Positions 2,075 through 20,525 of a stretch of 64,000 nucleotides of DNA are shown piece after piece. The stretch is taken from positions 1,740 to 65,739 of the forward strand of contig JANWJK010000020.1 of assembly GCA_025452005.1 (NCBI GenBank). The letters run 5' to 3'. Under the pieces are notes generated by a model. It saw nothing but the letters and a program-made list of their open reading frames with translations. It searched no databases and was not told the origin of the DNA. The translations under genes were made by a program, and so were the position numbers. This DNA is from Acetobacteraceae bacterium. Lineage in GTDB: Bacteria; Pseudomonadota; Alphaproteobacteria; Acetobacterales; Acetobacteraceae. The stretch's first letter is position 1. Every line of letters begins with the position of its first letter.

Positions 2075-3895
2075 CTAAACCAGTGACGACCCGAGCAACA
2101 GCGTAACCCGTCGGGCAAATTGGGCCGGATCGCGCGGGAGGTCACCTTCTTGGACACGGGCGAGATCGAGCAGCGTGCCGGCGGCTTCGGCGATCAGCGC
2201 TTCGTCCTGATGCTTTTGTGCCAGTGACTCGATCAGCGTGTGGCGCGGATTGACCTCCAGCACCGGCGAGGCCGGCAGCATGGCACGGCCGGCACGACGC
2301 AGCAGCCGCTGCATCTGCAGATCGGGCCCCCTGTCGCCGGCCGCCAGGACCACCGCACTGTCGGTCAGGCGGCCGGTCGACCGCACATCGGCCACTTCGT
2401 CTCCCAATGCCTTCTTGAGCGCAGCCAGCAGCGGCGAGATGTCCGGCAGACCTGTATCCTTCTCCGGCTCGGTCGGGGCCTGGGTGACACTCTTCAGGTG
2501 CTTGCCTTCGAAACTATCGAGCCGGTCGGGCCAGAACGCGTCGATCGGATCCGACAGCAACAGCGCCTCGGTGCCCTTGGTGCGGAATCCCTCAAGCTGC
2601 GGCGAGGCGCGGAGTGCGTCAACGTTGTCGCCGGCGAGGTACCAGATGGTGTCCTGCCCCTCCTGCATTCGCGAAAGATAGTCCGGCAGCGAGGTCCAGC
2701 CGTCCTGCGAGGACGAGCGGAACCGCAGCAGTGGAGCAATCTCGGCGCGGTGTTCGGCGTCCTCCCATGCACCCTCTTTCAGCACGGCGCCAAAATTGTC
2801 CCAGAGTTTTGCGTAGTCCTCGGCATCCTTGGCGCGGTTCTTCAGCTCCGCCAGCACGCGGCCGATCAACGCCTTGCGGATCCGTGCCAGCACCGGCGTG
2901 GTTTGCAGCATCTCGCGCGAGACGTTCAACGGCAGGTCCTCGGTATCCACCACGCCCTGCACAAAGCGGAGCCAGGAGGGCAGCAGTTCCGCCTTGTCGG
3001 TGATGAACATCCGCCGCACGTGCAGCTTCACATGCGACTCGCGATCGCCGTCGAACGACTCGAACGGCTTCATGCCAGGGAGGAACAACAGCGCATGGAA
3101 CTCGAGCATGCCTTCCGCGCGCCAATGCAGCGTGGCCCAGGGCGTGTCGAACAAGTGACCGAGATGGCGATAGAATTCGTTATACGATTGCTCGGAAATC
3201 TCGCTACGCGGCTTGCGCCACAGCGCGGTGCCCTCGTTGGCCGGTAGGTCTTTGCCGTCGCGAGCGATGGTGATCGGCAGCGTGATGTGGTCGGCCCATT
3301 TGCGCACGATCGCCTCGAGCCGGATCGGATCGAGGTACTCATCGGCATCGGACTTGATATGCAGCACGATATCGGTGCCGGCGGTCTCGCGCACACCCGG
3401 CGCGATGGTGAACTGGCCGGCGCCGTCGGACGCCCAGGTGAACGCCTCCTCGGAGCCCGCCTTGCGCGATGTCACTTCCACCCGGTCGGCGACCATGAAC
3501 GCGGAGTAGAAGCCCACACCGAACTGGCCGATCAGGCTGGGCCGCTCCTCCGGCTTGGCGGACGCCAGTGCCGCGCCGAAGGCGCGGGTGCCGGAGCGGG
3601 CGATGGTGCCCAGATTGTCGATCAGATCCTCCCGGCCCATGCCGATCCCGTCATCGGCTATCAGCAGGGTGCGTGCGGCCTTGTCGGGCACAATGCGGAT
3701 CTTCGCCTCAGCCGGTGGGGCAAGGGTGGCATCGGTCAGCGCCTCGAAGCGGCGCCGGTCCATCGCGTCGGCGGCGTTCGCCACCAATTCGCGCAGGAAT
3801 ATCTCGCGCTCGGAATACAGCGAGTGGACCACCAGATCGAGCAGCCGCCCGACCTCGGCACCGAAATCATGCTTCTCCGCAACAGCATCATTCAT
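2075..3895 (-). CDS. htpG: Molecular chaperone HtpG (Hsp90)
   Basis: 606 aa. The N-terminus [27 protein letters not shown] and [15 protein letters not shown] are Hsp90 ATPase motifs. AAGGAGG RBS lies upstream of the ATG. Confidence 0.95.
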
Positions 3896-3974
3896 CTGCG
3901 ACCCTCCTTACGGGCCGCGATATGCGTCACGATGCTGCTCGTTTCAATGCAAGGGCGGAGCAGCGTGCCGTTCG

Positions 3975-5618
3975 CTAGCGCGCAGCAGCCGCTCTGGCGC
4001 AGGTCGCGCCGTTGGCAGCCCTGGCATCCTCTCCTGCTCGCACCAGCCGCGGGTAGCGGCCCGCGGCGAGAGCGTCCAGGCTCGACGCGGGAAGGTGCAA
4101 TTCGGTCGCGTATTGCCAGGAATACACCAAGGAGTCCTCGATGAACTGCCGGGTGTTCCCGTTGGGAATCGCCTCGATGAACATCAGAGGATCGCCCTCG
4201 TCGCGCACCCCGTCGACCCATTTCCGCAGCCCGCCCTGGCCCTGGCCATAGCCTGCCAGCAACCGGATCAGGTCACCGTCGATCACATCGTCCTCCGCCA
4301 GCGTCAGCATCAACTGCTGACCGATGGCCAGGTTGATCCCCGGATCCTGTAGACGTCGCGCCTGTCCCCCGGCGACCGCATGCGCGGTGCGGGGCATGAT
4401 CTGCATCAGGCCGCGGGCTCCGGTGCTCGACACCGCCGCGGCATGGAAGTTCGATTCATGGCGGACCAGGGCGTAGACCAGCGGCGGATCGACCAGGAAG
4501 CCGCTGGCCGGCCGCAGACGTACCAGCGTCGCACCATCCGGACGCGGCATCCCGTTCCGCTCGATCTCGGCGGCCAGGTCGGTGAGGCCGACCGCTCGCG
4601 CCGCCAGGACGATTGAGCGATCGAACACGCCGTCCTTCCTGGTGTCGATCCAGAGGGCGCGCAGCTCCGCCTCGCCGAGGCGCTTCTCGCCGACCTGGAG
4701 CAGCGCGAAGGCGCGGCGGCCCTGAGGTGTCGCCAGCAGAGCCTCGGTATCGGCGTTGCCGAGTGTCTCGTGGGCCATGCAAGCCACCGCGGGGCCGAGC
4801 GCACGGCGGGCAATCAGGCCATAGAACGTGTCATCCTCGAGAGCGGCGCGACGCATCCATACGGCGAACTTTCCGCGATCGCCCCCGCGCTGTGCGACCC
4901 GGGCGGCCCAGAACGCGCCCGCAGCCCGCAGCGCGGTCGTCTCAGCGGTGCGATAGGCAGCCTCGAACAGCGCCGCGGCGTGACCCTCGCCGAGCCGCAG
5001 GGCCGCCAGGCCACCAACGAACTGCGCGTCGGCGTCGGCCGGCCGCGTCCGGGCGGCTGCGACCGCTGCGGCATCGCGGTTCTGCACGAACAGCGGTCGC
5101 GGGCCGGACATGGCGCGACTTGCCGCTCGAGGGGACGACGGCAATGGGTCTGCTGCCTGGGAGGTCGGTGCCAGGCGCTCCAGCAAGCCGCGAACGGTCG
5201 GCGCCTCCGCTTCATCGCCGAACCGGACGAGCCACGCCGTAAGCTCGGGCGGGGTGGGGCGGCCGCGCAGGTAGCGGTCCGCCAAAATGGGCCCAAGCAA
5301 CAGATCATTCTGTAGCCGGTCGGTTTCCCGCGCGGCCTCGCTAACCGAACCGGCACCTTGGAGGGAGAAAATTCTCCGCATCTGGGCCGCTTCGCTTGGC
5401 GACAGCGGTTGTGGGAGTCCAACGCCTGCCGCGCCGCGCAGTCCCACCCGCGGCACCGCCAGTGCGGCCTGGTCGGCGCTCTCGCCCGGTCTCTGCGCCT
5501 GAGCAGCACAGTAGTTCCCCGCCGCTCCAAGCAAAGCGGCGAGCATCGCTACCCAGATCACCAGAGCACAGGTCGATCGTGACCCTCGCCCTCGCATCCG
5601 ACCGCAATACACGCTCAT
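3975..5618 (-). CDS. Soluble lytic murein transglycosylase (SLT domain) with signal sequence
   Basis: C-terminal SLT catalytic motif HESNFHAAAVSSTGARGLMQIMP. Hydrophobic N-terminus ALVIWVAMLAALLGAAG. Confidence 0.85.
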   Translation of the reverse strand: MSVYCGRMRGRGSRSTCALVIWVAMLAALLGAAGNYCAAQAQRPGESADQAALAVPRVGLRGAAGVGLPQPLSPSEAAQMRRIFSLQGAGSVSEAARETDRLQNDLLLGPILADRYLRGRPTPPELTAWLVRFGDEAEAPTVRGLLERLAPTSQAADPLPSSPRAASRAMSGPRPLFVQNRDAAAVAAARTRPADADAQFVGGLAALRLGEGHAAALFEAAYRTAETTALRAAGAFWAARVAQRGGDRGKFAVWMRRAALEDDTFYGLIARRALGPAVACMAHETLGNADTEALLATPQGRRAFALLQVGEKRLGEAELRALWIDTRKDGVFDRSIVLAARAVGLTDLAAEIERNGMPRPDGATLVRLRPASGFLVDPPLVYALVRHESNFHAAAVSSTGARGLMQIMPRTAHAVAGGQARRLQDPGINLAIGQQLMLTLAEDDVIDGDLIRLLAGYGQGQGGLRKWVDGVRDEGDPLMFIEAIPNGNTRQFIEDSLVYSWQYATELHLPASSLDALAAGRYPRLVRAGEDARAANGATCARAAAAR

Positions 5619-5837
5619 ATCGTGGCTGGCAACACTGGCTGGTTATCAAGTCGGGGCGACGTCGGCGAGCGGCGGATTTCATACGTAGGTCGGCTGTGCC
5701 GCCAGTGGTCAACCGATCGAAAGGGATATATTCAGTATTACTTGTGCAATACGCAGGTGCCAGAGCTGTCTTTCGCAACGACTTTGCCAGCCCAGTCAAA
5801 CATTGACCTGGCGAGTAGTGCGACCGCACATCGCCAT

Positions 5838-6995
5838 ATGCGCCTGCTCCGCCTCTCGCTCACCGAGTTCCGTAACTACGCCGCGCTGACGTGGCGGCCC
5901 GGCGCGGGGATCAATGTGCTCTACGGACCGAACGGAAGCGGCAAGACCAATCTGCTGGAGGCGGTGTCGCTGCTCATGCCGGGCAGGGGCATGCGAAGTG
6001 CGCGCAACGCCGACCTGCCGCGGCGCGGCGCGGCCGGTGGCTGGGCCGTTGCCGGTCGCTTCGCCACCGCGGGTGGCGAGGTGGATATTGGCACGGGCAG
6101 CGCGCCGGATGGCCCGCCCGATCGCCGTGTCTTCCGCCTCGACGGGGTCGCGCCACGCAGCCAGGCGGAGATCGCCGCGCGTATTGCGGCGGTGTGGCTC
6201 ACACCGCAGATGGATCGTCTGTTCCAGGAGGGCATGGCGGGCCGGCGCCGCTTCCTCGACCGGCTGGCGTGGGCGCTGGAACCGGGCCACGCCCGCGAGG
6301 TCGCGGCACACGATGCCGCCATGGCACAGCGCAACCGGCTGCTCGCGGACCGCCGGGCCGATCCGGGGTGGCTTGCCGGGTTGGAGGACTCGATGGCGCG
6401 GCACGCCGTGGCGGCAAGCGCGGCGCGTATGGCATTGGTGGCACGGATGAACGCCGTGGCGCCGTTCCCTGGCTTTCCCGTGGCGCGCATGGGTCTGGAC
6501 TGCGCGATCGCCGGGCGGCTGGGGCCCGAGCCGGCTCTGAAGGTCGAGGACTGGCTGCGCGACAGCCTCGCCGCGACGCGTGTCCGCGATGCAGATGCAG
6601 GGTCCACGGGTGTCGGCGCGCACCGCGCCGACATGACACTGGCCGATGCCGTGACCGGCACGCCGGCGGCGATTGCGTCCACCGGCGAGCAGAAGGCATT
6701 GCTGGTCGGTGTCATCCTGCGCCATGCCGCGCTGATCGCCGAGGCACGTGGCTTCGCGCCGATGCTGCTGCTTGACGAACCGACGGTCCATCTCGATCCG
6801 GAGCGACGCGCCGCGCTGTTCGAGGCGTTGGTGAGACTGCCGGCGCAGACGCTGATCACCGGCACCGACGCTGAAACCTTTCTGCCGATCGCCGGGCATG
6901 CCGAAGGAATGCACGTGCATAGTGGTGAATTGCTGCCGGATCGGCGTTTTCCACAGATAGATTCGATCGCAGCCCCTGTGCCCGGCACGTCGTAG
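5838..6995 (+). CDS. recF: DNA replication/repair protein RecF
   Basis: MRLLRLSLTEFRNY..., Walker A GPNGSGKTNLLEAV and Walker B LLLDEP. ATG at 5838 lies inside the longer track ORF 5622..6995. The gene sits immediately upstream of gyrB. Confidence 0.9.
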   Translation: MRLLRLSLTEFRNYAALTWRPGAGINVLYGPNGSGKTNLLEAVSLLMPGRGMRSARNADLPRRGAAGGWAVAGRFATAGGEVDIGTGSAPDGPPDRRVFRLDGVAPRSQAEIAARIAAVWLTPQMDRLFQEGMAGRRRFLDRLAWALEPGHAREVAAHDAAMAQRNRLLADRRADPGWLAGLEDSMARHAVAASAARMALVARMNAVAPFPGFPVARMGLDCAIAGRLGPEPALKVEDWLRDSLAATRVRDADAGSTGVGAHRADMTLADAVTGTPAAIASTGEQKALLVGVILRHAALIAEARGFAPMLLLDEPTVHLDPERRAALFEALVRLPAQTLITGTDAETFLPIAGHAEGMHVHSGELLPDRRFPQIDSIAAPVPGTS

Positions 6996-7023
6996 CAGCT
7001 ATATAGTTAGAGTATCCAAATAG

Positions 7024-9474
<2,451 letters not shown>

Positions 9475-9486
9475 CGCCGTCAACCT

Positions 9487-9529
9487 CACGGCTTGCGCGA
9501 GGGTTTGTTTAACCCTCTGGCAAGCCGTG
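9487..9529 (+). terminator. Stem-loop directly after gyrB; possible terminator lacking a U-tract
   Basis: CACGGCTTGC gc GAGGGTT tgttt AACCCTC tg GCAAGCCGTG is a nested inverted repeat 13 nt after the gyrB stop. No T-run follows it. Confidence 0.35.
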
Positions 9530-9565
9530 CCTGATATCCTGCTCGCCCCATTCCGGAGGTCTGTC

Positions 9566-10912
9566 GTGTCGGCAGCGCCGAGTTCCGACCTGTCGATGTC
9601 CAGTATTGGCCACGCTGCGCTGGTCGCTGACGACGACGCCATGGTACGTGACGTGCCTCGGTCCCTCCTGACCGAGGCAGGTTACACGGTCATGGCTGCG
9701 GCGAGCGGGCAGGAGGCGTTGGCGCTTGCCTCCTACCTCGACGCTGCCGTGGCGATCCTCGATCTCGCGATGCCGCATGGCGATGGACTGCAGACCTGCG
9801 CTGCGCTGCGAAGGATGGCGAATTGGCGGCATGTACCGATCCTGATTCTGACAAGCTATCATACAGATGCGGCATTACGCGCAGCCCGCTGCGCCGGGGT
9901 CAGCGGTTTCGTCTGCAAGCCGTTCGTATCGTCCGAATTGTTGCGGCGGATCGCCAGCCTGACCGGAGACAGGACGGCACCCAGGCAGCATGCACAGATG
10001 GTCTGGAAGCGCCGGACGCTGGACCGCGATCCGGCGGAAGGGGCCGAGAGCGGCGTGCCGTGGGAGCGATCGAATGCAATGTTTTCGCCGAGCTCGAACG
10101 CGATTCTACAGGCTTATCGCGGCGCGGCCTCGATGAACTGTGGTGCGTCGAACAATTCGGACTGCGAGAATGCGGCGCCGGAGCACCGACGGATTCTGCT
10201 GGCGGAGGATGAGACAACGACGCGCGAGATCGTCGGTCATCTTCTCGCCCAGGAAGGATATCAGGTCGACACCGCCGCAAACGGTCGAGAGGCATTATCG
10301 GCCGTGATCGTCGGCAATTACGATCTCGTCCTCATGGATGTTCGCATGCCGACATTGAGCGGTACCGAGGTGACACGATTGATCCGTTCGCTGCCGAATG
10401 CCAAGCGACACACGCCGGTTATTGCAATGACGGCGAACGCGTTCAACCTGTTCGCTCAGGAAATGCAGGAAGCCGGCATGAACGGCTATCTTATGAAGCC
10501 GGTCAGCGCGCCGGCCTTGCTTGACTGCGTGCGGCAGCACCTTGACGGAGAGGCGCAGCCTGCGGAATACGACCGGCAGACCGGCCCTGCTCGGTTGCTG
10601 GATCTGGAGCGGCTACGGGATGAAGCCAGGTTGTTCGCACCAGGGGCCATGGGGCGGTTCCTGGACAACCTTGCAATCTCGATCGAGGAAATCCTGGCGA
10701 GGGTACAGGGCTGGGTGAGCACGGAACCCGCCGAACTGAGGTGGCGGTTACACAATATGACCGGAGTCGCTGGCACGCTGGGATGCACCGCGCTGTCGGA
10801 GGTCGCCCGCGATCTCGAGGCAGAGGCGGCGCCTTCGGATGCGTTGCGACAACGGTTCATCGCGACGGCGCGGGCATCCCTGGCTGCCATCCGGCAGTAT
10901 CGCATCGCATAG
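9566..10912 (+). CDS. Two-receiver plus HPt phosphorelay protein (REC-REC-HPt)
   Basis: REC1: LVADDD...AILDLAMPHGDG...CKPF. REC2: ILLAEDE...LVLMDVRMPTLSG...MKPV. C-terminal HPt-like LHNMTGVAGTLGCTALSEVARDLE. GTG at 9566 lies 6 nt after GGAGG. The track start at 9527 (GTG) sits inside the gyrB hairpin. Confidence 0.8.
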   Translation: MSAAPSSDLSMSSIGHAALVADDDAMVRDVPRSLLTEAGYTVMAAASGQEALALASYLDAAVAILDLAMPHGDGLQTCAALRRMANWRHVPILILTSYHTDAALRAARCAGVSGFVCKPFVSSELLRRIASLTGDRTAPRQHAQMVWKRRTLDRDPAEGAESGVPWERSNAMFSPSSNAILQAYRGAASMNCGASNNSDCENAAPEHRRILLAEDETTTREIVGHLLAQEGYQVDTAANGREALSAVIVGNYDLVLMDVRMPTLSGTEVTRLIRSLPNAKRHTPVIAMTANAFNLFAQEMQEAGMNGYLMKPVSAPALLDCVRQHLDGEAQPAEYDRQTGPARLLDLERLRDEARLFAPGAMGRFLDNLAISIEEILARVQGWVSTEPAELRWRLHNMTGVAGTLGCTALSEVARDLEAEAAPSDALRQRFIATARASLAAIRQYRIA

Positions 10913-11073
10913 GCCGGCCGATCCGCGGTAGGCAACGTGCGTCGCCTTAACGGGATTTTCTTGTTCCCCAGACAATACTCCGCGGCGCGGCGCACCCTGC
11001 AAGATTCGACGGCGGGCCCGGGCCATGCCGGCCGAATTGTGATGAGCAGTGCACCGACCCACGAGGCCCCGTC

Positions 11074-12804
11074 ATGCTCGACACAACTGTCAGTACCGAA
11101 GCGACGCGGCCTCTCGATCTCGGCAACAACGCCCCAGCCGATCAGTCGATCAATGTCGCCCCCAACCTTCACGATGCGACGCTGGTTCGCCGGTATCAGC
11201 GGTTCGCCCCGATTGGCGCCCTGACAGTCATCCTGATCTCGCTTGTCGCGCTCGCAAGCTGGTCGTTCGAGATCCCGCTGTTGGCCGGCGTGTTTCCGTC
11301 CTGGGTACAGGCGAAGGCCAATACGGCGATCGCACTCCTCGCCCTTGGCATCTGCTTATCGCTCATCAACGCGGTCCGGGGACGTGGCGGGCGGGGGATG
11401 ATTCTGGTGGTTGTCATCGGTGCAGGTCTTGCGACGGCAATCGGCATCGCGTCGCTGCTCGAAGACATATTGCGCGTGGATTTTGGCATAGACCAGTTGT
11501 TGTTCGTCGAACCAGTCGGAAGCCTCGATATGGTGCATCCTGGTCGGCCTGCGTCGACGACTGACATTTGTCTGATCCTGACGGGTGTGGCGATGCTCGT
11601 GACCACGGCGCGCACCAACAAACTCTACTGGCTACTGGGGGTATCGTTCACCACAACGCTTGCCCTGTCGATGACCGCACTTCTGGGCTATTTTGTCGGC
11701 GTTCGCGAGCTGTACACGCTTGCCGGCCACTCGTCGGCGATGAGCTTGAGTGCGACCGTCAGCTTTCTGCTGCTCGCCGTCGGGACCATATGCGCCAACC
11801 CCGATCACGTACTATTCCAGCGGCTGGCGAGCTCAGGTTCCGGTGGCTACATGCTGCGACGATTGCTGCCGCTTGTCGCAATCTTGACCGCGGGCATCGT
11901 GGGACTTCGATTGTGGGGTCAAGCCATTGGCGTGTTTGCCACTGTCGAGTTCGGTGCCGCCACCGTTACCGTGGCAACGACCATCAGCGTGAGTGTCATT
12001 CTGATATGGTGCGCCGCGCGACTTGATGACCTGGACGCGGCACGGGTTATCGCAGAAGCCGAGACCCGGCATCTCAATGCATTGCTCAATCAGAGGCTCA
12101 TCGACCTGGCGACTGCGAACCGCGAGCTTGAGACGTTCTCCTATTCGGTGTCCCACGATCTGCGGACACCGCTGCGCGCCATCGACGGCTTCTCGCGCAT
12201 TCTGTCAGAGGATTACGCAGACTCGCTCGACACCGAGGCACAGCGGATCATCGGTATCGTGCGCGACGGCACGCGCAAGATGGCGCAATTGATCGACGAT
12301 ATCCTGGCGTTCTCGCGCATCGGCCGTACCGAAATGGCCACGGCCGAGGTTGACATGACCGAGTTGGTTCGCGAGGTGCTGCACGAGCTCTCCCCGGCAA
12401 TCGGCATTCGTGAGCTGCAATTTGTGATCCCAGCGCTGCCATCGGCGCACGGCGATCGGACGATGCTCCGGCGTGTTTGGCAGAATCTGCTCGACAACGC
12501 CGTCAAATACACCAGCACGCGTGACGCTGCCGTGGTCGAGATCGGCAGTGAACTTGGGAACTCCATGGTGGGGTATTACGTCACGGACAACGGGGTCGGC
12601 TTCGATATGCGCTACGTCGACAAGCTGTTCGGCATATTCCACCGGCTGCATGGCCCTGACGAGTTTTCCGGCACCGGTATCGGCCTTGCGATCGTCAAGC
12701 GTATTGTGGCGCGCCACGGCGGCGAAGTGTGGGCCAAAGGCAAGCCGGACCTGGGAGCCACCTTCCATTTCTCTCTGCCAGCTTTGGAGACAGGCCATGA
12801 TTGA
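11074..12804 (+). CDS. Membrane-bound sensor histidine kinase (multi-TM N-terminus, HisKA, HATPase_c)
   Basis: About 8 hydrophobic segments in the first 330 aa. H-box [17 protein letters not shown] box LLDNAVKY, G boxes DNGVGF and GTGIGLAIV. Confidence 0.85.
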
Positions 12805-13243
12805 TTCGCCCGCTATGGTCAACATCCTCCTGGTAGAAGACAACGCCAGCGACGCTGAACTCTACATTCGTGCTCTGCGGAAACAAAATCTCGCGAACGA
12901 CCTGATCTGGGTGAAGGACGGCGCGGAGGCCCTAGACCTCCTGCTTCCGGACGACGACGACGGCGCGGATCGGAGACTGCCCGCTCCCAAGGTTATCTTG
13001 CTGGATCTGCGGCTGCCGAAGGTGGACGGGCTGGAGATCCTCAAAAGGCTCAAGGCAGATCAGCGGACACGTACCCTGCCCGTCGTTGTGCTGACCTCCT
13101 CGAAGCAGGACCGCGACGTCGTCGAGGCGTACGGTCTGGGCGTCAACAGCTTCATCAGCAAGCCGGTCGTGTTCGACGAGTTCGTCGATACTGTGGTGAA
13201 GCTTGGCCTCTACTGGCTCGTCGTCAATCGGCCCCCCTGCTGA
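12797..13243 (+). CDS. Single-domain response regulator (CheY/Rcp1-like)
   Basis: [13 protein letters not shown]...[13 protein letters not shown]...VVVLTSS...SKPV with no output domain. ATG at 12797 overlaps the kinase stop (12802-12804) by 8 nt. Confidence 0.85.
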
Positions 13244-13261
13244 ACAGACTGGCTCATTACA

Positions 13262-15727
13262 ATGATCCAGATACCGTCGCAGACAGCGTCCCATCCTCGG
13301 GACACGCCGTCTACCTTCAGGCTTCTCATCCTGGAGGACTCGGTGACAGACGCGGAGCTGGAACAGCATGCCCTGCACAAGTCGGAGCTGATGTTCGCAG
13401 CGGAGGTCGTCGCGACCGAGCAGGCCTTCGTTGATGCACTGCGCGGGTTCGGGCCCGACATCGTCATTGTCGATTTTCAGGTCCCGGGTTTCAATGGCGT
13501 TGAGGCGGCACGCGAGGTAAAGCAGTGGCGTGCCGACATACCCGTCATTCTGGTGACGGGCGTGCTCAGCGACGAGGCCGCTGGGCAATTCATCAAGGCA
13601 GGGATCAGCGACTATGTCCTGAAGGACCGCCTCACCCGGTTGCCTGCGGCGGTACGGAGCGCTCTGGACGAGGCGGCCGCTGTGCGCGGCAGGATTCAGG
13701 CGGAATCGGCGCGGGATGAGCTCGCGCGAATCCTGGAATGTGCCGAGGACGCGGTCATCGGTACCAACATTACTGGCACTGTGACCGCCTGGAATGCCAG
13801 CGCTGCGCGGATCTTCGGCTGCGCGGCCAGCGAGGCGATCGGGCAACCGATCAACGAAGCGTTAGGCAACTTTGCCATTGTGCCGATCGACGCTGCGCTG
13901 CAGAAGGTCCAGCATGACGGAGTCGTCACGAGTCTCAAGGCGCAATATGGCGGGGACCACGACAACGCGCGCGTGTTGTCGCTGTGCCTGTCGCCGATCC
14001 GCGATGCGGCGGCAAACATCACGGGTGCGTCGATCGTCATCCGGGACATCACCGAAGAAAAGCGAATGCAGTTGCAGCTCAGCCGGACCACGGCACAGCT
14101 TGCACTGTCGCTGCAACAGATCTCGGAGACCAACATTGCGCTGCAGCGAGAGATCCAGGTGCGGCGAGCGGCCGAGCTCGAGGCTGCCGGCGCCCGCCAG
14201 GACGCCGAGAGCGCCAACGAGGCGAAGTCTTCCTACCTGTCGCATGTCAGCCACGAAATCCGCACGCCAATGACCAGCATCATCGGCTTTGCCGATCTGC
14301 TACTGGATAGCCACCTCTCGGCTGATCAGGCCAGGAAGGTCAGAAACCTGCGCGAGGCGGCAAGATCGCTGTTGTCGATCATCAACGACATCCTCGACAT
14401 CTCGGCGATCGAATCAGGTCACCTCCGGTTGGCACCGGCGCCCACCAATCTGCCCGCTGTCGTCGAGGCCGTCCTGGCAACCGTCAAACCGAATGCCAGC
14501 GCCAAGGCGCTCGAACTGAGCTGCAACTTCGCACCCGACGTGCCACTTTGTGTGCAGGCGGATCCGGAGCGCCTGCGGCAGATCCTGCTCAACCTGGTCG
14601 GCAATGCCGTCAAGTTTACCGAACACGGTGGCGTTGCGGTCTCGGTGGGCTGCGACCCCGTCCCGTGCGGTCCGTTCGTTCGCTTCGAGGTCAACGACAC
14701 CGGCATCGGCATTCCCCTTGACGATCAGAACCACCTCTTCCGCGAGTTCTATCGCGTAGAACAGAGTCGTGCGCGCGAGGCCGAGGGAAGCGGCCTTGGC
14801 CTCGCGATTAGCCGGCGGCTCGTCGAGGCCATGGGCGGGTCCATCGGCGTTGCGAGCCGTACCGGCAAGGGGTCGACGTTCTGGTTCCTGCTGCCATTGC
14901 CGACGATGATGCAGGCGCCAGCGCCGGCGCCTCGCATTTCGGTCTGCGAGCATGGGAAGAAGGGGAAGGTCCTTGTTGCCGAGGATCTGCCTATGAACCA
15001 GATGATCATCAGCGAGATGCTGGAGACGGCAGGCCACACGGTGGTGGTCGTCGCGGACGGCGTGTCTGCCATCACGGCACTGCAGACCGAAAGGTTTGAT
15101 CTGGTCCTGATGGACATGGAGATGCCGGTCATGGGCGGCATCGGCGCGACCCGCGCTGTGCGGTCGATGGAACAGGCACGAAGAACGCCGATCGTGGCGC
15201 TGACGGCAAATGCCATGCCGCAGCAGATCGCCGATTGTCGCGCAGCGGGAATGGACGACTACCTGTCGAAGCCCATCGATCGGACACTGATGCTGCATGC
15301 CGTGGCCAGATGGATCGGTCGTGAGTCGTCAGAACCCGATGCGTGCGGTGAAGCAACCCGCGAGATGCCCGACCGGGGTATACTCGATCAGCTGAAGGCC
15401 CGCTTCGGTCCCGAGAAGACACGGCGGTTCCTGGTGATTGCGCGTGAACATCTCGCGCGGGTCATAGGCTGCCTGTCCGATTGTGGCGATCATCCGACCG
15501 CGCAACATGCGCTACATGATCTCGTGTCGGTCGCCGGCAACGTCGGACTGCACAGTCTCAGCGAGCAGGCGCGTCGATTGCTGATCGCTATGCAATCGAA
15601 TGCGGACGATGTTGCGACGCTGGCGCCCACATTGCTTGCCGCGGCGCGAGCCACGGTCGCATTGCTAGATAATCGGTACCTGGCGATGGCTCCTTTGCCC
15701 CTCCATGAGTCGGCCGGCATCGGGTAG
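13262..15727 (+). CDS. Hybrid sensor histidine kinase (REC-PAS-HisKA-HATPase-REC-HPt)
   Basis: N-terminal REC: LLILEDS...IVIVDFQVPGFNG. PAS-like segment. H-box LSHVSHEIRTPM, then GNAVKFT, DTGIGI, GSGLGLAI. C-terminal REC: VLVAED...LVLMDMEMPVMGG...SKPI. HPt-like LHDLVSVAGNVGLHSLSE. Confidence 0.85.
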   Translation: MIQIPSQTASHPRDTPSTFRLLILEDSVTDAELEQHALHKSELMFAAEVVATEQAFVDALRGFGPDIVIVDFQVPGFNGVEAAREVKQWRADIPVILVTGVLSDEAAGQFIKAGISDYVLKDRLTRLPAAVRSALDEAAAVRGRIQAESARDELARILECAEDAVIGTNITGTVTAWNASAARIFGCAASEAIGQPINEALGNFAIVPIDAALQKVQHDGVVTSLKAQYGGDHDNARVLSLCLSPIRDAAANITGASIVIRDITEEKRMQLQLSRTTAQLALSLQQISETNIALQREIQVRRAAELEAAGARQDAESANEAKSSYLSHVSHEIRTPMTSIIGFADLLLDSHLSADQARKVRNLREAARSLLSIINDILDISAIESGHLRLAPAPTNLPAVVEAVLATVKPNASAKALELSCNFAPDVPLCVQADPERLRQILLNLVGNAVKFTEHGGVAVSVGCDPVPCGPFVRFEVNDTGIGIPLDDQNHLFREFYRVEQSRAREAEGSGLGLAISRRLVEAMGGSIGVASRTGKGSTFWFLLPLPTMMQAPAPAPRISVCEHGKKGKVLVAEDLPMNQMIISEMLETAGHTVVVVADGVSAITALQTERFDLVLMDMEMPVMGGIGATRAVRSMEQARRTPIVALTANAMPQQIADCRAAGMDDYLSKPIDRTLMLHAVARWIGRESSEPDACGEATREMPDRGILDQLKARFGPEKTRRFLVIAREHLARVIGCLSDCGDHPTAQHALHDLVSVAGNVGLHSLSEQARRLLIAMQSNADDVATLAPTLLAAARATVALLDNRYLAMAPLPLHESAGIG

Positions 15728-15731
15728 CGCG

Positions 15732-16274
15732 ATGTCAGCCACCCTTGAACAGCTTGTGCGCGCCGCCGTCCGCGCGGAGCTCGACGAGTTCCGTCGTTTC
15801 GTCGACCGGCGCATCGCCGAGCTGAGCATGGAGATTCACGCCACGGTGCAGTTGGTCGACTACAGTGAGACCAATCTGTCGGCGAAGCTGGCGAGCATCC
15901 ATGAGCAGATCGCCCATGTCGTCGCCGCGCCGGTAGCGGCGACGCACAACAGCGGCGTCGAGCTGGAGGCGGTGGTGCTGGCCACCGAGAACGCCGCCAA
16001 CCAAATCATGGAGGCAGCGGAAGCCATCGCCAGCTGGCTGCAGGCGGGTGGCGATCCTGCCGCTCTGCCCGCCGTGACCCAGCAGGTCAACGCGATTTTC
16101 GAGGCCTGCACCTTTCAGGATCTCACCGGCCAGCGGGTTCGCCGCGCTATCGAACACTTGCAGCAGGTCGAGACCATGTTGTCGGGCATGATGCACGACG
16201 CGCCGGTCGAACCCGCCAATGTAGCAACCCCGTCCGACCTCGCACAGGCCGACATCGACAGCCTGTTCGCGTGA
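15732..16274 (+). CDS. CheZ-like aspartyl-phosphate phosphatase
   Basis: 180 aa and helical. Contains ACTFQDLTGQRVRRAIEHLQQVE, which has the DxxxQ spacing of the CheZ catalytic motif. The acidic amphipathic C-terminus SDLAQADIDSLFA resembles the CheY-binding tail of CheZ. Third-position GC is strong in this frame. Confidence 0.65.
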   Translation: MSATLEQLVRAAVRAELDEFRRFVDRRIAELSMEIHATVQLVDYSETNLSAKLASIHEQIAHVVAAPVAATHNSGVELEAVVLATENAANQIMEAAEAIASWLQAGGDPAALPAVTQQVNAIFEACTFQDLTGQRVRRAIEHLQQVETMLSGMMHDAPVEPANVATPSDLAQADIDSLFA

Positions 16275-17018
16275 ACCTCCGCCGGCGATCTCGGTGATCA
16301 GCTTGCTGCGCACGGCCTCGGCGAATTGCTCGTAGCTGGTCACCGCGATGACGAACGAGCCTGGCCCGCCGATCACGCTCTGCCGGTAATAAATATCCAG
16401 CTCAGGCTCCAGTGTCAGGATTGGCAGGCCATTGATGACCGCGCCTGCCTGCACCGCCGCATCGCGCGCATCTTCGGCCGGTCGGCCACGGTTGTTCGCA
16501 CCGTCCCCCGACACGTCGATGACCTGCCGCTGCCCCTGATATGGCGCACGCGCGAGCATTCCGAGCGAATAGTCGATCGCACCGCTGATTGAAGTGCCGC
16601 CGCCGAACAGTGCGCGCGGCGCATCCCTAATGGCCGCGGCGAAGCGCTCGGCCGAGGCCGCATCGTCGATCAGCGTCCAATCCACCGCTACGACATGCAG
16701 CGCCGGCCCGGTCCACTGCAACATCGCAACCGCGATCGAGCCTGTGGAGGTAGAGCGAATCGCCTGCAGCACGGCGGCGCTGCGGAATGCCGCCGCGTAG
16801 CCCTCGCGCTGAAGCTCAAACCGGTCCTGACTGACGCTGCCCGATACGTCCACCGCCAGCACGAGCTGCACGGCGACAGGCGTCGCCGCGAATGCGCCAT
16901 CCACGATGAGGATCACGGCCAGCAACGCCAAAAGCCCGCGTCGATATGGATATCCGGACAACCAGCCCTCTCTGTCCGATTGAGTCGCACACACTTGGTC
17001 GCCTGGTCTAGGCTCCAC
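15735..17018 (-). CDS. DUF1194-like (vWA-fold) secreted protein; the ORF has no stop of its own and reads antisense through the CheZ-like gene
   Basis: N-terminal signal-like LLALLAVILIVDGAFA. LAVDVSGSVS (MIDAS-like), VIDVSGDGANN and ...SKLITEIAGGGS match my memory of DUF1194 proteins of about 250 aa. Only about 16263..17018 is domain-supported. The remaining 176 codons are the exact reverse complement of the CheZ-like codons. Confidence 0.55.
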   Translation of the reverse strand: MEPRPGDQVCATQSDREGWLSGYPYRRGLLALLAVILIVDGAFAATPVAVQLVLAVDVSGSVSQDRFELQREGYAAAFRSAAVLQAIRSTSTGSIAVAMLQWTGPALHVVAVDWTLIDDAASAERFAAAIRDAPRALFGGGTSISGAIDYSLGMLARAPYQGQRQVIDVSGDGANNRGRPAEDARDAAVQAGAVINGLPILTLEPELDIYYRQSVIGGPGSFVIAVTSYEQFAEAVRSKLITEIAGGGSREQAVDVGLCEVGRGCYIGGFDRRVVHHARQHGLDLLQVFDSAANPLAGEILKGAGLENRVDLLGHGGQSGRIATRLQPAGDGFRCLHDLVGGVLGGQHHRLQLDAAVVRRRYRRGDDMGDLLMDARQLRRQIGLTVVDQLHRGVNLHAQLGDAPVDETTELVELRADGGAHKLFKGG

Positions 17019-17039
17019 CGAGACTGCCCATCACCGGAG

Positions 17040-19022
<1,983 letters not shown>

Positions 19023-19028
19023 TGCCAA

Positions 19029-20525
19029 TCACAACGGCAGACGTCCCTGCCGCTCCGGGCGATCAGCGGTTGCGCCGACCTCGCCGTCGGCGAAGCGTAA
19101 CCTGAGCCGGGCTCCGGGCGGCACCGTGGCCACGCTGGTCAGCGGATGCCCGGCGGCATCCGAGACCACCGCATAGCCACGTTGCAGGACGGCCAGCGGC
19201 GAAACCGATTCGAGCCGCGCAGCAGTCCCCTCCAGCCGAGCACGGGTCTCACGCAACAACGCGCGCAGCGGCACATCCGATAGCCGCCCGAGCATGCGGC
19301 CGGCGCGGCCATGGATGCCGGCCACAGCGTGCCGCAAGCCGCTACCCAGCTTCTGGCCGCACAGGTCAATCGCAGCATGCCGCCGCGCCACGAAGTTCGG
19401 CAGCGCGATGATCAGACGAACGCCGCGTTCCTGTACCCGCTCGCGCCATGCCGTGGCCAGCGCCTGCAGGTCGGGCAACTGCCGCACCGCCGCATCGAGC
19501 GCCGCCCGGCGCTTGTGCAGCAGGTTGGGCAGCGCGAGCACCAGCCGCTCGGCGCGATCGTCCAACCGCTGCCGCGCCCCACCGAGCAACGCGGGCAGAT
19601 CGGGCAGCCCACGTTCCGCACGCGACAGGAGCAGCCGGCGCTGCTGCGTCAGGTGGTTCAGGCCGCCGATCAGCCGCGCCGCCCGTTGCTCCAGATCGGC
19701 GATCAATTCGGCCCGCGCCGGCACCGCAAGCTCCGCAGCGGCGGTGGGTGTCGGCGCGCGGCGATCGGAGACAAAGTCAATCAGCGTGGTATCGGTTTCG
19801 TGCCCGACCGCGGAGATCAGCGGGATGCGGCAGGCGGCGACCGCGCGCAGAACGACTTCCTCATTGAAAGCCATCAGGTCCTCCAGGCTGCCGCCGCCGC
19901 GCGCCACGATCAGGACGTCGGGGCGGGGCACGACACGCTCGAAGCCGGCGATGGCGGTGGCGATGCGCTCTGCGGCGCCGTCGCCCTGTACCGGTACGGG
20001 CCACAGCAGCACGGCGCGCGGAAAGCGGCGCGCGATCGTGGTGCGGATGTCCTGTATCACCGCGCCACGCTCGCTGGTCACGACGCCGATCACCGCCGGC
20101 AGCACCGGCAGCCGACGCTTGCGGTCGGCGTCGAACAGTCCCTCCGCCACCATGCGCAGGCGCAGCATCTCGATGCGGGCGAGCAGGGCGCCGGCCCCGG
20201 CATACTCCATCCGCTCGGTGATGAGCTGATACGACGAACGGTCCGCATAGGCGGAGACGCGGCCGGTGGCGATCACCTCGACGCCGTTCTCCGGCACCAT
20301 GCCGAGGCGGGACACCGTGGATTTCCACACCACGCCGGCGATCTTGGCGCCCTCGTCCTTCAGCGAGAAGTAGATGTGCCCGGAAGGGTAGCGCTTCAGT
20401 TCAGTAATCTCGCCGCGCACGCGCACCCGGCCGAAATTGCCTTCCAGCGTGCGCTTCACCGCGCCGGAGATTTCCGAGACGGTGTATTCCGGCACATTCG
20501 ACACTGTGGTCCTAAGTTCGTCCAT
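19029..20525 (-). CDS. xseA: Exodeoxyribonuclease VII large subunit
   Basis: N-terminal OB-fold EYTVSEISGAVKRTLEGNFGRVRVRGEITELKRYPSGHIYFSLKDE. 498 aa. Confidence 0.92.
   Translation of the reverse strand: MDELRTTVSNVPEYTVSEISGAVKRTLEGNFGRVRVRGEITELKRYPSGHIYFSLKDEGAKIAGVVWKSTVSRLGMVPENGVEVIATGRVSAYADRSSYQLITERMEYAGAGALLARIEMLRLRMVAEGLFDADRKRRLPVLPAVIGVVTSERGAVIQDIRTTIARRFPRAVLLWPVPVQGDGAAERIATAIAGFERVVPRPDVLIVARGGGSLEDLMAFNEEVVLRAVAACRIPLISAVGHETDTTLIDFVSDRRAPTPTAAAELAVPARAELIADLEQRAARLIGGLNHLTQQRRLLLSRAERGLPDLPALLGGARQRLDDRAERLVLALPNLLHKRRAALDAAVRQLPDLQALATAWRERVQERGVRLIIALPNFVARRHAAIDLCGQKLGSGLRHAVAGIHGRAGRMLGRLSDVPLRALLRETRARLEGTAARLESVSPLAVLQRGYAVVSDAAGHPLTSVATVPPGARLRLRFADGEVGATADRPERQGRLPL

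What the first reader, a model, noticed from the sequence alone, without database searches (positions are those of the whole stretch)
15732..16274. CheZ-like phosphatase with catalytic DxxxQ and a CheY-binding-type tail, outside any chemotaxis locus
The 180-aa helical protein contains FQDLTGQRV. The Asp and the Gln four residues later have the spacing of the E. coli CheZ catalytic pair (D143/Q147 in FQDLTGQV). The protein ends in SDLAQADIDSLFA, an acidic amphipathic tail reminiscent of the CheZ C-terminal CheY-docking peptide (...DDLLDSLGF). Its start lies 5 nt after the stop of a hybrid kinase ending in REC-HPt. This suggests accelerated dephosphorylation of a non-chemotaxis receiver.
Basis: partly seen in the sequence, partly recalled or inferred. 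Interest (0 to 1): 0.65.

Follow-up and report, generated by a model that had tools for sequence, protein, structure and literature searches.

The report
Orphan CheZ-family phosphatase beside sensor kinases
The small gene is a real but distant relative of CheZ, the enzyme that strips phosphate from the chemotaxis signalling protein CheY. It belongs to an unstudied soil-bacterial branch that sits next to sensor kinases instead of chemotaxis genes, so it may switch off a different signalling pathway, but that is not proven.

Summary
ORF 15732-16274 (+) encodes a 180-aa all-helical protein with ACTFQDLTGQ (D130/Q134) and the tail SDLAQADIDSLFA, and it starts 4 nt after the stop of a REC-PAS-HisKA-HATPase-REC-HPt kinase.

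Homology to CheZ is real but remote. Pfam CheZ gives E 6.5e-7, 0.8 bit under the curated cut-off. A profile of its relatives hits E. coli CheZ/1KMI at E 1e-10 (hhalign probability 97%), covering the catalytic helix and the CheY-docking peptide.

The protein belongs to an alphaproteobacterial lineage ("group B", Acetobacteraceae/Rhodospirillales/Micavibrio) with its own N-terminal motif (FVDRRIxELS). This lineage is never next to cheY. It is distinct from the cheY-linked CheZ ("group A") that also occurs in Acetobacteraceae.

The 64-kb window has no che or mot genes.

The tight junction with the upstream kinase is not conserved: relatives have a luciferase-like or DoxX gene there. The recurrent neighbour in relatives of at least 70% identity is the downstream PAS-HK-REC kinase. 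More distant members have housekeeping neighbours.

A rare sister clade is fused as PAS-HK-REC-HPt-CheZ.

A non-chemotaxis target is plausible (about 0.45) but unproven. An orphan chemotaxis role remains a strong rival.

The parts
15732..16274 (+). CheZ-family ('group B') phosphatase gene, 180 aa. Predicted helices are 2-64, 74-104 and 109-155, followed by a flexible linker at 156-171 and a terminal helix at 172-179.
   Evidence: Translation. Pfam CheZ E 6.5e-7. Family profile vs E. coli CheZ/1KMI: E 1e-10, probability 97%. 1949 homologues. AF2 model.
15786..15839 (+). Lineage-specific N-terminal motif EFRRFVDRRIAELSMEIH (R26 and R27 invariant). It is absent from cheY-linked CheZ and from the kinase-fused forms.
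   Evidence: Alignment A1. Motif census over 84 loci. 118 of 120 close homologues carry it.
16095..16145 (+). Catalytic helix segment IFEACTFQDLTGQRVRR. It holds the AxxFQ motif, Asp130 (codon 16119-16121) and Gln134 (codon 16131-16133), equivalent to E. coli CheZ D143 and Q147.
   Evidence: Residue-by-residue alignment to 1KMI_Z. F128 and Q134 are invariant and D130 is at least 90% conserved.
16233..16271 (+). C-terminal amphipathic peptide SDLAQADIDSLFA. It aligns with the CheY-docking peptide SQDQVDDLLDSLGF of E. coli CheZ.
   Evidence: hhalign and hmmsearch alignments run to the C-terminus. Q172, I175 and D176 are conserved. Predicted helix 172-179 after a low-confidence linker.
13262..15727 (+). 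821-aa hybrid kinase REC-PAS-HisKA-HATPase-REC-HPt. Its stop lies 4 nt before the cheZ-like ATG. This is the same kinase type as the kinase part of the fused PAS-HK-REC-HPt-CheZ proteins (36-43% identity).
   Evidence: Pfam and NCBIfam. Receiver alignment. BLASTP vs fusions. Junction seen in independent soil contigs.
12797..13243 (+). Stand-alone receiver (148 aa, single-domain response regulator). It overlaps the stop of the preceding kinase by 8 nt and keeps D57, T87 and K109. It is a candidate substrate.
   Evidence: Pfam Response_reg. Start and key residues.
11074..12804 (+). 576-aa membrane histidine kinase (HisKA-HATPase), first gene of the same-strand string kinase / receiver / hybrid kinase / cheZ-like.
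   Evidence: Pfam. Hydrophobic segments and junctions.
9527..10912 (+). REC-REC-HPt protein (461 aa). Both receivers keep the phospho-acceptor Asp. The second receiver is the most CheY-like one in the window, though far from a CheY orthologue.
   Evidence: Pfam. phmmer with E. coli CheY: 3e-20 for the second receiver domain and 2.6e-26 for the whole ORF, against about 1e-42 for true cheY neighbours. Receiver alignment.
17040..19022 (+). 'HK2', a PAS-PAS-HisKA-HATPase-REC hybrid kinase with no HPt. It is the recurrent neighbour of the cheZ-like gene in relatives of at least 70% identity. Here its receiver has Tyr (codon 18807-18809) in place of the phospho-acceptor Asp.
   Evidence: Pfam and NCBIfam. 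Start by comparison with orthologues. Neighbourhoods. D-to-Y change and its polymorphism.
16275..17018 (-). DUF1194 (VWA-like) gene lying between the cheZ-like gene and HK2, convergent with the cheZ-like gene. Its ORF has no stop until 15735, so it runs antisense through the whole cheZ-like gene.
   Evidence: Pfam DUF1194 E 7e-71 on residues 48-246 of the 427-aa ORF. Same arrangement in L085-L087 with 90-180 nt of overlap. Codon-register analysis.

Best explanation
The ORF encodes a genuine CheZ-family receiver-aspartyl-phosphate phosphatase. It belongs to an uncharacterised alphaproteobacterial paralogue lineage ('group B') that has separated from the cheY-cheZ chemotaxis pair.

Inferred mechanism, by homology with E. 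coli CheZ:
- The protein dimerises through its long helices.
- The C-terminal helix (residues 172-179), on a flexible linker, docks on a phosphorylated receiver domain.
- The catalytic helix then places Gln134 in the receiver's active site to position the attacking water, while Asp130 pairs with the receiver's conserved Lys.

In this soil bacterium the gene is the last of a same-strand string: membrane kinase, stand-alone receiver, REC-PAS-HK-REC-HPt kinase, cheZ-like, with gaps of -8, 18 and 4 nt. It also lies next to a PAS-HK-REC kinase.

The most likely role is to shorten the lifetime of a phosphorylated receiver of this local two-component network. Candidates are the stand-alone receiver, a receiver of the 821-aa kinase, or the Asp-bearing allele of the HK2 receiver, rather than flagellar CheY.

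What is shown: family membership at profile level, motif conservation, gene order, the lineage split and the existence of fusions. What is inferred: catalysis, dimerisation, co-transcription and the identity of the substrate.
For: CheZ homology:
- Pfam E 6.5e-7 on the catalytic helix.
- Profile vs 1KMI_Z E 1.2e-10 and hhalign probability 97%, including the docking peptide.
- D/Q, AxxFQ and the tail are kept in 114-118 of 120 close homologues.

A separate lineage:
- In 40 genome loci the cheY-linked proteins (E. coli-CheY-like gene immediately upstream, phmmer about 1e-42, often with motB or MCP nearby) lack the N-terminal F-x-x-RR motif and read FQDITGQR.
- About 40 loci including the window carry the motif, read FQDLT[GS]QR[IV]R and never have cheY next door.
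- The two sets form separate clades in a neighbour-joining tree.
- Acetobacteraceae also possess the canonical type inside a full che/flagellar cluster, on Rhodovastum plasmid RHOApa.

Link to two-component systems:
- A 4-nt gap to the hybrid kinase, in a same-strand string, confirmed in independent soil contigs.
- HK2 is adjacent in 23 of 27 related loci of at least 70% identity in three different arrangements: directly downstream, downstream after DUF1194, and directly upstream at 27-56 nt.
- Proteins with architecture PAS-HisKA-HATPase-REC-HPt-CheZ (P0212/L043, P0216, P0222, P0226; fragments P0228, P0271) carry the group-B active-site string and are sister to the Rhodospirillales group-B clade.
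- No che or mot genes in the 64 kb.
Against: - The junction with the 821-aa kinase is unique to this strain. Relatives have a luciferase-like or DoxX gene there. L129 shows kinase, luciferase-like gene, cheZ-like, so the junction may simply follow a deletion.
- Group-B members at 57-68% identity and the Micavibrio type have no two-component neighbour. They sit after a Cu-type P-type ATPase, between nuoI and nuoJ, or near purD/xseA. This fits a target encoded elsewhere, possibly CheY.
- The docking motif QxxIDxLF is nearly the same as in cheY-linked CheZ, so it does not argue for a new partner.
- In the window the HK2 receiver lacks its Asp.
- Fusions are rare, about six clusters.
- Pfam and NCBIfam scores are below the curated cut-offs.
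- The structure search gave no CheZ hit.
- There is no biochemical or expression evidence. Metatranscriptome fragments are too sparse.
Confidence: 0.45

Rival explanations
1. It is an orphan chemotaxis phosphatase. The protein dephosphorylates a CheY encoded elsewhere in the genome, as the orphan cheZ of Azorhizobium caulinodans does, and its position beside kinases is incidental.
For: - Catalytic and CheY-docking motifs are fully conserved, and the tail is almost the same as in cheY-linked CheZ.
- Most group-B members have unrelated housekeeping neighbours, as expected for a gene whose partner is elsewhere.
- The upstream kinase junction is not conserved.
- Orphan cheZ and cheY1 genes outside the che cluster are known, and deletion of that cheZ abolishes chemotaxis (PMC7750401).
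- Annotation pipelines already name relatives 'chemotaxis protein CheZ'.
Against: - The lineage is distinct from the cheY-linked CheZ found in the same family.
- It is never next to cheY, che or mot genes in about 120 loci examined.
- The HK2 neighbourhood persists through rearrangements.
- A sister clade is fused to non-CheA hybrid kinases.
- A. caulinodans CheZ appears to be of the cheY-linked type. This is inferred from the Xanthobacteraceae loci L050 and L059 and was not checked directly.
Confidence: 0.35
2. It is the dedicated partner of the PAS-HK-REC kinase HK2 only. It drains the phosphoryl group from HK2's C-terminal receiver and so resets that kinase. The upstream kinase string is irrelevant.
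For: HK2 is the neighbour in 23 of 27 loci of at least 70% identity, in three gene orders. All 13 orthologous HK2 receivers keep the phospho-acceptor Asp.
Against: - The adjacency is confined to one subclade. Four close loci go straight to xseA without HK2 (L090, L102, L113, L119).
- Both genes sit in an old xseA/purD neighbourhood, so shared ancestry of position could explain part of the linkage.
- In the window strain the HK2 receiver carries Tyr instead of Asp.
Confidence: 0.12
3. It is a CheZ-derived protein that no longer acts as a phosphatase, for example a localisation or scaffold factor working through its long N-terminal helix. Alternatively it is not a real gene, and the DUF1194 ORF on the other strand is the coding one.
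For: - The N-terminal 64-residue helix carries the most invariant residues after the active site (R26, R27).
- In A. caulinodans the N-terminal helices of CheZ direct polar localisation (PMC7750401).
- A 427-aa antisense ORF covers the gene.
Against: - The catalytic Asp/Gln and the docking peptide are under clear conservation, which a pure scaffold would not need.
- 1949 homologues exist on the + frame, with GC3 of 0.83.
- The antisense extension is not conserved: stops occur 90-180 nt in for relatives. It is also expected by codon usage, P about 0.23.
Confidence: 0.05

Closest known systems
E. coli CheZ (Pfam PF04344; structure 1KMI with CheY)
   Same: - The catalytic helix has the identical heptad FQDLTGQ (D143/Q147 equivalent to D130/Q134) and the preceding AxxFQ.
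- The C-terminal docking peptide aligns (SQDQVDDLL vs AQADIDSLF).
- The build is all-helical, with a flexible linker before the terminal helix.
   Different: - 180 vs 214 aa, and the hairpin is about 35-45 residues shorter (gaps).
- The N-terminal 75 residues are unrelated.
- There is no adjacent cheY or che operon.
- The NCBIfam CheZ equivalog scores 22.5 against a cut-off of 257, so it is not an orthologue.
Alphaproteobacterial cheY-linked CheZ, e.g. CheZ_AC of Azorhizobium caulinodans (PMC7750401)
   Same: - Short four-helix-bundle hairpin, long N-terminal helix, ACxFQDxTGQ motif and QxDIDALF tail.
- Lies outside the main che cluster.
- Same bacterial class.
   Different: - It forms a separate clade.
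- It lacks the F-x-x-RR[IF] N-terminal motif of the window's lineage and reads FQDITGQR.
- It is immediately preceded by a true cheY and often lies near motB, MCP or flagellar genes, whereas the window's lineage never is.
Fused PAS-HisKA-HATPase-REC-HPt-CheZ proteins (P0212 = L043, P0216, P0222, P0226), uncharacterised
   Same: - The CheZ part has the group-B active-site string FQDLTSQR[VL]R and the QxxIDALF tail.
- The kinase part has the same architecture as the window's 821-aa kinase and is 36-43% identical to it.
- The window has the two parts as neighbouring genes 4 nt apart.
   Different: - The fusions lack the N-terminal FVDRRI helix, with the HPt domain taking its place.
- Their kinases lack the extra N-terminal receiver.
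- Orthology of the kinase parts is not established.
- The architecture is rare.
Other auxiliary phosphatases of two-component systems: CheC/CheX/FliY, Spo0E and Rap (named from general knowledge of the field, not tested here)
   Same: Same logic: a separate protein inserts an amide or acid side chain into a receiver's active site to speed hydrolysis and terminate the signal.
   Different: The folds and families are unrelated. None of them matched the protein in Pfam or NCBIfam.

Membership tests
CheZ (Pfam PF04344) | Match to the family model above the curated gathering score | tested here: inconclusive
   29.9 bits against a cut-off of 30.7, E 6.5e-7, covering only the catalytic helix. Precomputed Pfam marks relatives as CheZ 'weak' or 'faint'. 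A profile of the family reaches E. coli CheZ at E 1e-10 and probability 97%.
CheZ (Pfam PF04344) | Catalytic DxxxQ on a long helix, preceded by AxxFQ | tested here: met
   ACTFQDLTGQ, with D130 and Q134 aligned to D143 and Q147. Conserved in 118 of 120 close and 87 of 105 full-length distant relatives. The AxxFQ motif is as defined in PMC7750401.
CheZ (Pfam PF04344) | C-terminal amphipathic peptide that docks on CheY | tested here: met
   The sequence criterion is met. ...AQADIDSLFA aligns with SQDQVDDLLDS, is conserved and is predicted as a helix after a flexible linker. Binding itself was not tested.
CheZ (Pfam PF04344) | Helical hairpin forming a dimeric four-helix bundle | tested here: inconclusive
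   The monomer model is all-helical with a hairpin at 74-104/109-155. Foldseek against the PDB gave only generic helical hits and no 1KMI. The dimer could not be modelled with the tools at hand.
CheZ (Pfam PF04344) | Stimulates dephosphorylation of CheY-P | not testable with these tools
   This needs biochemistry.
Chemotaxis CheZ orthologue (NCBIfam NF008368 equivalog; cheY-cheZ gene pair) | Equivalog-level score, with cheY or che genes adjacent | tested here: not met
   22.5 bits against a cut-off of 257. There is no cheY, cheA, cheW, cheR, cheB, MCP or mot gene in 64 kb, nor next to any of about 120 group-B loci.
Group-B CheZ-like lineage (defined here) | N-terminal F-[VIM]-x-R-R-[IF] motif, FQDLT[GS]QR[IV]R, QxxIDxL[FLM] tail, no adjacent cheY | tested here: met
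   The window protein has FVDRRI, FQDLTGQRVR and AQADIDSLFA. It clusters with L001-L031 in the tree.
Kinase-linked CheZ (operonic or fused with REC-HPt hybrid kinase) | Conserved linkage to a REC-HPt hybrid kinase | tested here: not met
   The junction is present here and in near-identical soil contigs. It is absent in all 27 related loci of at least 70% identity. The fused forms are a separate, rare sister clade.

The most novel reading that the evidence does not exclude
A branch of the CheZ family has left chemotaxis and become the signal-terminating phosphatase of ordinary hybrid-kinase phosphorelays. It is encoded beside such kinases, as here, or fused to them as PAS-HK-REC-HPt-CheZ. This would be the first CheZ-type auxiliary phosphatase for non-chemotaxis two-component signalling. 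Its lineage-specific N-terminal helix (FVDRRIxELS) would serve as the module that recruits it to its kinase.
Probability: 0.35. Interest if true: 0.6.

Novelty: new variant of a known kind. Interest (0 to 1): 0.4.

Why it matters
Dedicated phosphatases that set the lifetime of phosphorylated receivers are known for chemotaxis (CheZ, CheC/CheX) and sporulation (Spo0E, Rap). They are almost unknown for the thousands of ordinary hybrid-kinase phosphorelays.

If this lineage acts on such receivers, it would give a simple, sequence-recognisable marker for phosphorelays with actively accelerated signal decay: DxxxQ plus the docking tail plus the FVDRRI helix. It would also give a compact test case, with five intact receivers in one island and natural fused versions.

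It would correct the automatic annotation 'chemotaxis protein CheZ' for about two thousand proteins from soil Acetobacteraceae and Rhodospirillales.

If instead it is just an orphan chemotaxis CheZ, the finding is ordinary.

Tried and rejected
- **Structure search.** The AF2 monomer was searched against the PDB with Foldseek. Only generic helical bundles came back (best E 0.78) and no 1KMI. This is uninformative for an obligate coiled-coil dimer and was not used.
- **Single-sequence search of the PDB.** CheZ was the top hit but at E 0.021. It was replaced by the profile search.
- **Promoter and terminator scan of 9300-19200.** Counts were at or below the shuffled expectation. It says nothing about operon structure.
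- **Soil metatranscriptomes.** Only 150-210-nt unstranded fragments at depth 2-3 lie on the kinase, the cheZ-like gene and the DUF1194 region. None spans the junction, so co-transcription could not be tested.
- **Literature.** No paper in the held library describes a CheZ domain fused or operonic with non-CheA kinases, or this lineage. Two papers on A. caulinodans cheZ and cheY were not held.
- **Second protein search with the HPt-CheZ part of a fusion.** The word prefilter capped the candidates. Only two HPt+CheZ fragments were returned, so the true number of fusions is uncertain.
- **Plasmid collection.** Only two hits. The annotated one, on a Rhodovastum plasmid, is cheY-linked (group A); the other, in a Methylobacterium bullatum record, was not examined.
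- **HK2 as a LOV or CckA kinase.** NCBIfam scores are far below the cut-offs and no LOV signature was seen, so this was rejected.
- **The antisense 427-aa ORF as the true gene.** Rejected for the stretch 15735-16274.
- **Co-occurrence of group A and group B in one genome.** This could not be tested.
Full report
**1. The observation**

It contains IFEACTFQDLTGQRVRR and ends SDLAQADIDSLFA. The preceding 821-aa ORF stops at 15725-15727 (TAG) and the ATG follows after 4 nt. Homologues begin at the same Met, so the alternative in-frame ATG at 15705 is unlikely.

E. coli CheZ, read from MG1655, holds the identical heptad FQDLTGQ with D143 and Q147, and ends SQDQVDDLLDSLGF. The AlphaFold2 model built on a 30-sequence alignment is all-helical (helices 2-64, 74-104, 109-155, 172-179; mean pLDDT 80). 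Confidence is low in the linker at 156-171.

Contigs from three further soil metagenome runs of different studies span the kinase/cheZ-like junction, so it is not an assembly artefact.

**2. Is it CheZ?**

- Pfam CheZ (PF04344) matches residues 114-158 to profile positions 113-157 at E 6.5e-7. The score is 29.9 bits, 0.8 bit under the gathering score.
- The NCBIfam CheZ equivalog scores 22.5 against a cut-off of 257, so it is not an orthologue of enteric CheZ.
- With a profile of 30 relatives (A1), the PDB search finds 1KMI chain Z at E 1.2e-10 and nothing else comparable.
- hhalign against E. coli CheZ gives probability 97% and E 8.5e-11.
- Both alignments cover the helix before the hairpin, the catalytic helix and the C-terminal docking peptide. 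They show a hairpin about 35-45 residues shorter than in E. coli. A shorter bundle was also described for the alphaproteobacterial CheZ of Azorhizobium caulinodans (PMC7750401).
- The AxxFQ motif described in that paper is present as ACTFQ.
- F128 and Q134 are invariant, and D130, Q172, I175 and D176 are at least 90% conserved in A1.
- 118 of 120 close homologues keep AxxFQDxxxQ and 114 of 120 keep the QxxIDxLF tail.

The protein is therefore a real, remote member of the CheZ family. Public pipelines already label its relatives 'chemotaxis protein CheZ'.

**3. Two alphaproteobacterial lineages**

A scan of one genome per species returned 80 loci. I searched their ORFs with E. coli Che and Mot proteins and with the window's own domains. 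The loci fall into two sets.

*Group A (L044-L083).*
- An E. coli-CheY-like gene (phmmer about 1e-42) lies immediately upstream, often with motB or MCP genes nearby.
- The proteins read FQDITGQR and lack any N-terminal F-x-x-RR motif.
- This is the known cheY-cheZ pair.
- An annotated example from the Acetobacteraceae is Rhodovastum atsumiense plasmid RHOApa. There it sits in MCP-cheR-cheB-cheW-cheA | cheY-cheZ-fliK-flgD.

*Group B (the window, L001-L042).*
- Found in Acetobacteraceae, Rhodospirillales, Stellaceae and Micavibrio MAGs, Rhodopila globiformis, and Roseomonas and Falsiroseomonas species.
- Carries a conserved N-terminal motif (FVDRRIAELSxEI, with R26 and R27 invariant) and reads FQDLT[GS]QR[IV]R.
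- Never has cheY next to it.

A neighbour-joining tree on the 85-column core separates the two groups. It has no support values and is only indicative.

**4. Surroundings in the window**

From recF and gyrB (5622-9474), the + strand carries:
- a REC-REC-HPt protein (9527-10912);
- a membrane kinase (11074-12804);
- a stand-alone receiver (12797-13243, overlapping the kinase stop by 8 nt);
- the REC-PAS-HisKA-HATPase-REC-HPt kinase (13262-15727);
- the cheZ-like gene.

Next comes a DUF1194 gene on the minus strand (from 17018). After it lie the PAS-PAS-HisKA-HATPase-REC kinase 'HK2' (17040-19022) and xseA on the minus strand. Nothing in the 64 kb resembles CheA, CheW, CheR, CheB, an MCP, MotA or MotB.

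All receivers keep D57, T87 and K109 except that of HK2. None is a CheY orthologue. The best is the second receiver of the REC-REC-HPt protein at 3e-20.

**5. Which neighbour is conserved?**

I examined about 90 further loci of close relatives from metagenomes and MAGs.

Upstream gene, among relatives of at least 70% identity:

| Upstream neighbour | Loci |
|---|---|
| Luciferase-like monooxygenase | 13 |
| DoxX | 3 |
| HK2 | 4 |
| DUF1194 | 2 |
| The 821-aa kinase | 0 |

L129 shows a related hybrid kinase, then the luciferase-like gene, then cheZ-like (66% and 78% nt identity to the window). The 4-nt junction here therefore looks like the result of losing the intervening gene.

HK2, by contrast, is adjacent in 23 of 27 informative loci, in three arrangements:
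- directly downstream;
- downstream after DUF1194;
- directly upstream with a 27-56 nt gap (L115-L117, L029).

Four loci go straight to xseA.

Members at 57-68% identity and the Micavibrio type have no two-component neighbour. They follow a heavy-metal P-type ATPase by 6-45 nt, sit between nuoI-like and nuoJ genes, or lie by purD/xseA, pirin or DUF2252.

**6. Fusions**

The exhaustive representative search (1880 hits) includes proteins of 686-919 aa. Their Pfam architecture is PAS-HisKA-HATPase-REC-HPt-CheZ (P0212, P0216, P0222, P0226), plus the HPt-CheZ fragments P0228 and P0271.

- P0212 is the 932-aa continuous ORF of genome locus L043.
- Their CheZ part has the group-B active-site string and the QxxIDALF tail, but lacks the N-terminal motif. 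It is sister to the Rhodospirillales group-B clade.
- Their kinase part is 36-43% identical to the window's 821-aa kinase, against 25% for HK2. It is the same type, but orthology is not shown.
- The architecture is rare.

**7. Interpretation**

*Mechanism.* This is inferred by homology with the E. coli CheZ-CheY structure, from established knowledge. A helical dimer docks its C-terminal helix on a phosphorylated receiver. Gln134 enters the active site to position water, and Asp130 pairs with the conserved Lys.

*Target.* This is the open point.
- For a non-chemotaxis target:
  - the lineage is separate from the cheY-linked CheZ of the same family;
  - cheY and che genes are absent from every locus examined;
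  - the gene sits in a same-strand string with tiny gaps;
  - the HK2 adjacency persists through rearrangement;
  - a fused sister clade exists.
- For an orphan chemotaxis role:
  - most of the lineage has housekeeping neighbours;
  - the docking peptide is nearly unchanged;
  - the junction with the 821-aa kinase is not conserved;
  - orphan cheZ genes have a precedent in A. caulinodans.

I put the local two-component reading at about 0.45 and the orphan chemotaxis reading at about 0.35. A role as partner of HK2 alone gets about 0.12, and non-catalytic or not-a-gene readings about 0.05.

**8. Novelty**

CheZ in Alphaproteobacteria and orphan cheZ genes are known (PMC7750401; PMC12887009). I found no description in the searchable literature of this lineage, of its N-terminal motif, or of CheZ domains fused or operonic with non-CheA hybrid kinases. 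That is an absence in a limited library, not proof. I rate it a new variant of a known kind, of moderate interest. The interest rests on the unproven target.

**9. Limits**

- No biochemistry.
- No multimer modelling.
- No whole-genome view of the organism.
- The tree has no support values.
- My gene calling in related loci is heuristic (GC3-based).
- Domain detection in those loci used single-sequence phmmer queries at E below 1e-4, so divergent receivers or kinases could have been missed.

Noticed in passing
window 18807-18809 (within HK2, 17040-19022 +): The receiver of the PAS-HK-REC kinase reads LALVYYAMPMMSG, with Tyr (TAT) where all 13 orthologues have the phospho-acceptor Asp (LALVDYAMP). 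In soil metagenome contigs position 18807 is G (GAT, Asp) in runs X2-X4 and in about half the depth of X1. The Tyr is therefore a segregating variant, or an error, that would make this receiver non-phosphorylatable.
   Followed up: partly
window 15735-17018 (-): The DUF1194 (VWA-like) gene has no stop at the end of its domain. The ORF runs 427 aa, antisense through the entire cheZ-like gene in exact codon register. The only stop arises from sense codon 2 (TCA). By local codon usage the chance of no stop in 180 codons is about 0.23. In relatives the overlap is 90-180 nt.
   Followed up: yes
L034:9361-11333, L035:2245-4283, L032:10674-11330: In Micavibrio-type MAGs the group-B cheZ-like gene sits inside what looks like the nuo operon. 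It lies between a NuoI-like 2x[4Fe-4S] gene and a NuoJ (Oxidored_q3) gene, followed by genes of NuoK, NuoL, NuoM and NuoN sizes.
   Followed up: partly
L005:4912-7634, L008:264-3595 (Rhodopila globiformis), L007, L133, L135, L147: In a subclade at about 60-65% identity the cheZ-like gene starts 6-45 nt after a heavy-metal (HMA domain) P-type ATPase gene on the same strand.
   Followed up: partly
window 13262-15727 and 9527-10912: The 821-aa kinase has an extra N-terminal receiver (residues about 18-135), so it is REC-PAS-HK-REC-HPt. Its HPt, and that of the REC-REC-HPt protein, read H-D-L-V-S-V-A-G and H-N-M-T-G-V-A-G instead of the usual HxxKG, and score just under Pfam's cut-off.
   Followed up: partly
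L168 (Rhodovastum atsumiense plasmid RHOApa, 33002-49307): A 220-kb plasmid of an Acetobacteraceae species carries a complete chemotaxis and flagellar cluster, with a cheY-cheZ pair of the canonical alphaproteobacterial type.
   Followed up: partly
L072:9302-11712 (Azospirillum sp. OGB3): Two cheZ-like ORFs lie in tandem after cheY.
   Followed up: no
window 14227-14419, 17894-18086, 18280-18472: Contig depth in soil metagenomes spikes 10- to 500-fold over short stretches of the two kinases, with many 'joints'. These are most likely conserved H-box and ATPase-motif words shared by many kinases in the communities, not features of this locus.
   Followed up: no
window 2075-9474: htpG (minus strand), an SLT-domain transglycosylase, recF and gyrB precede the kinase island. 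The recF-gyrB ... cheZ-like ... xseA order is shared with L001, with variable content in between.
   Followed up: partly
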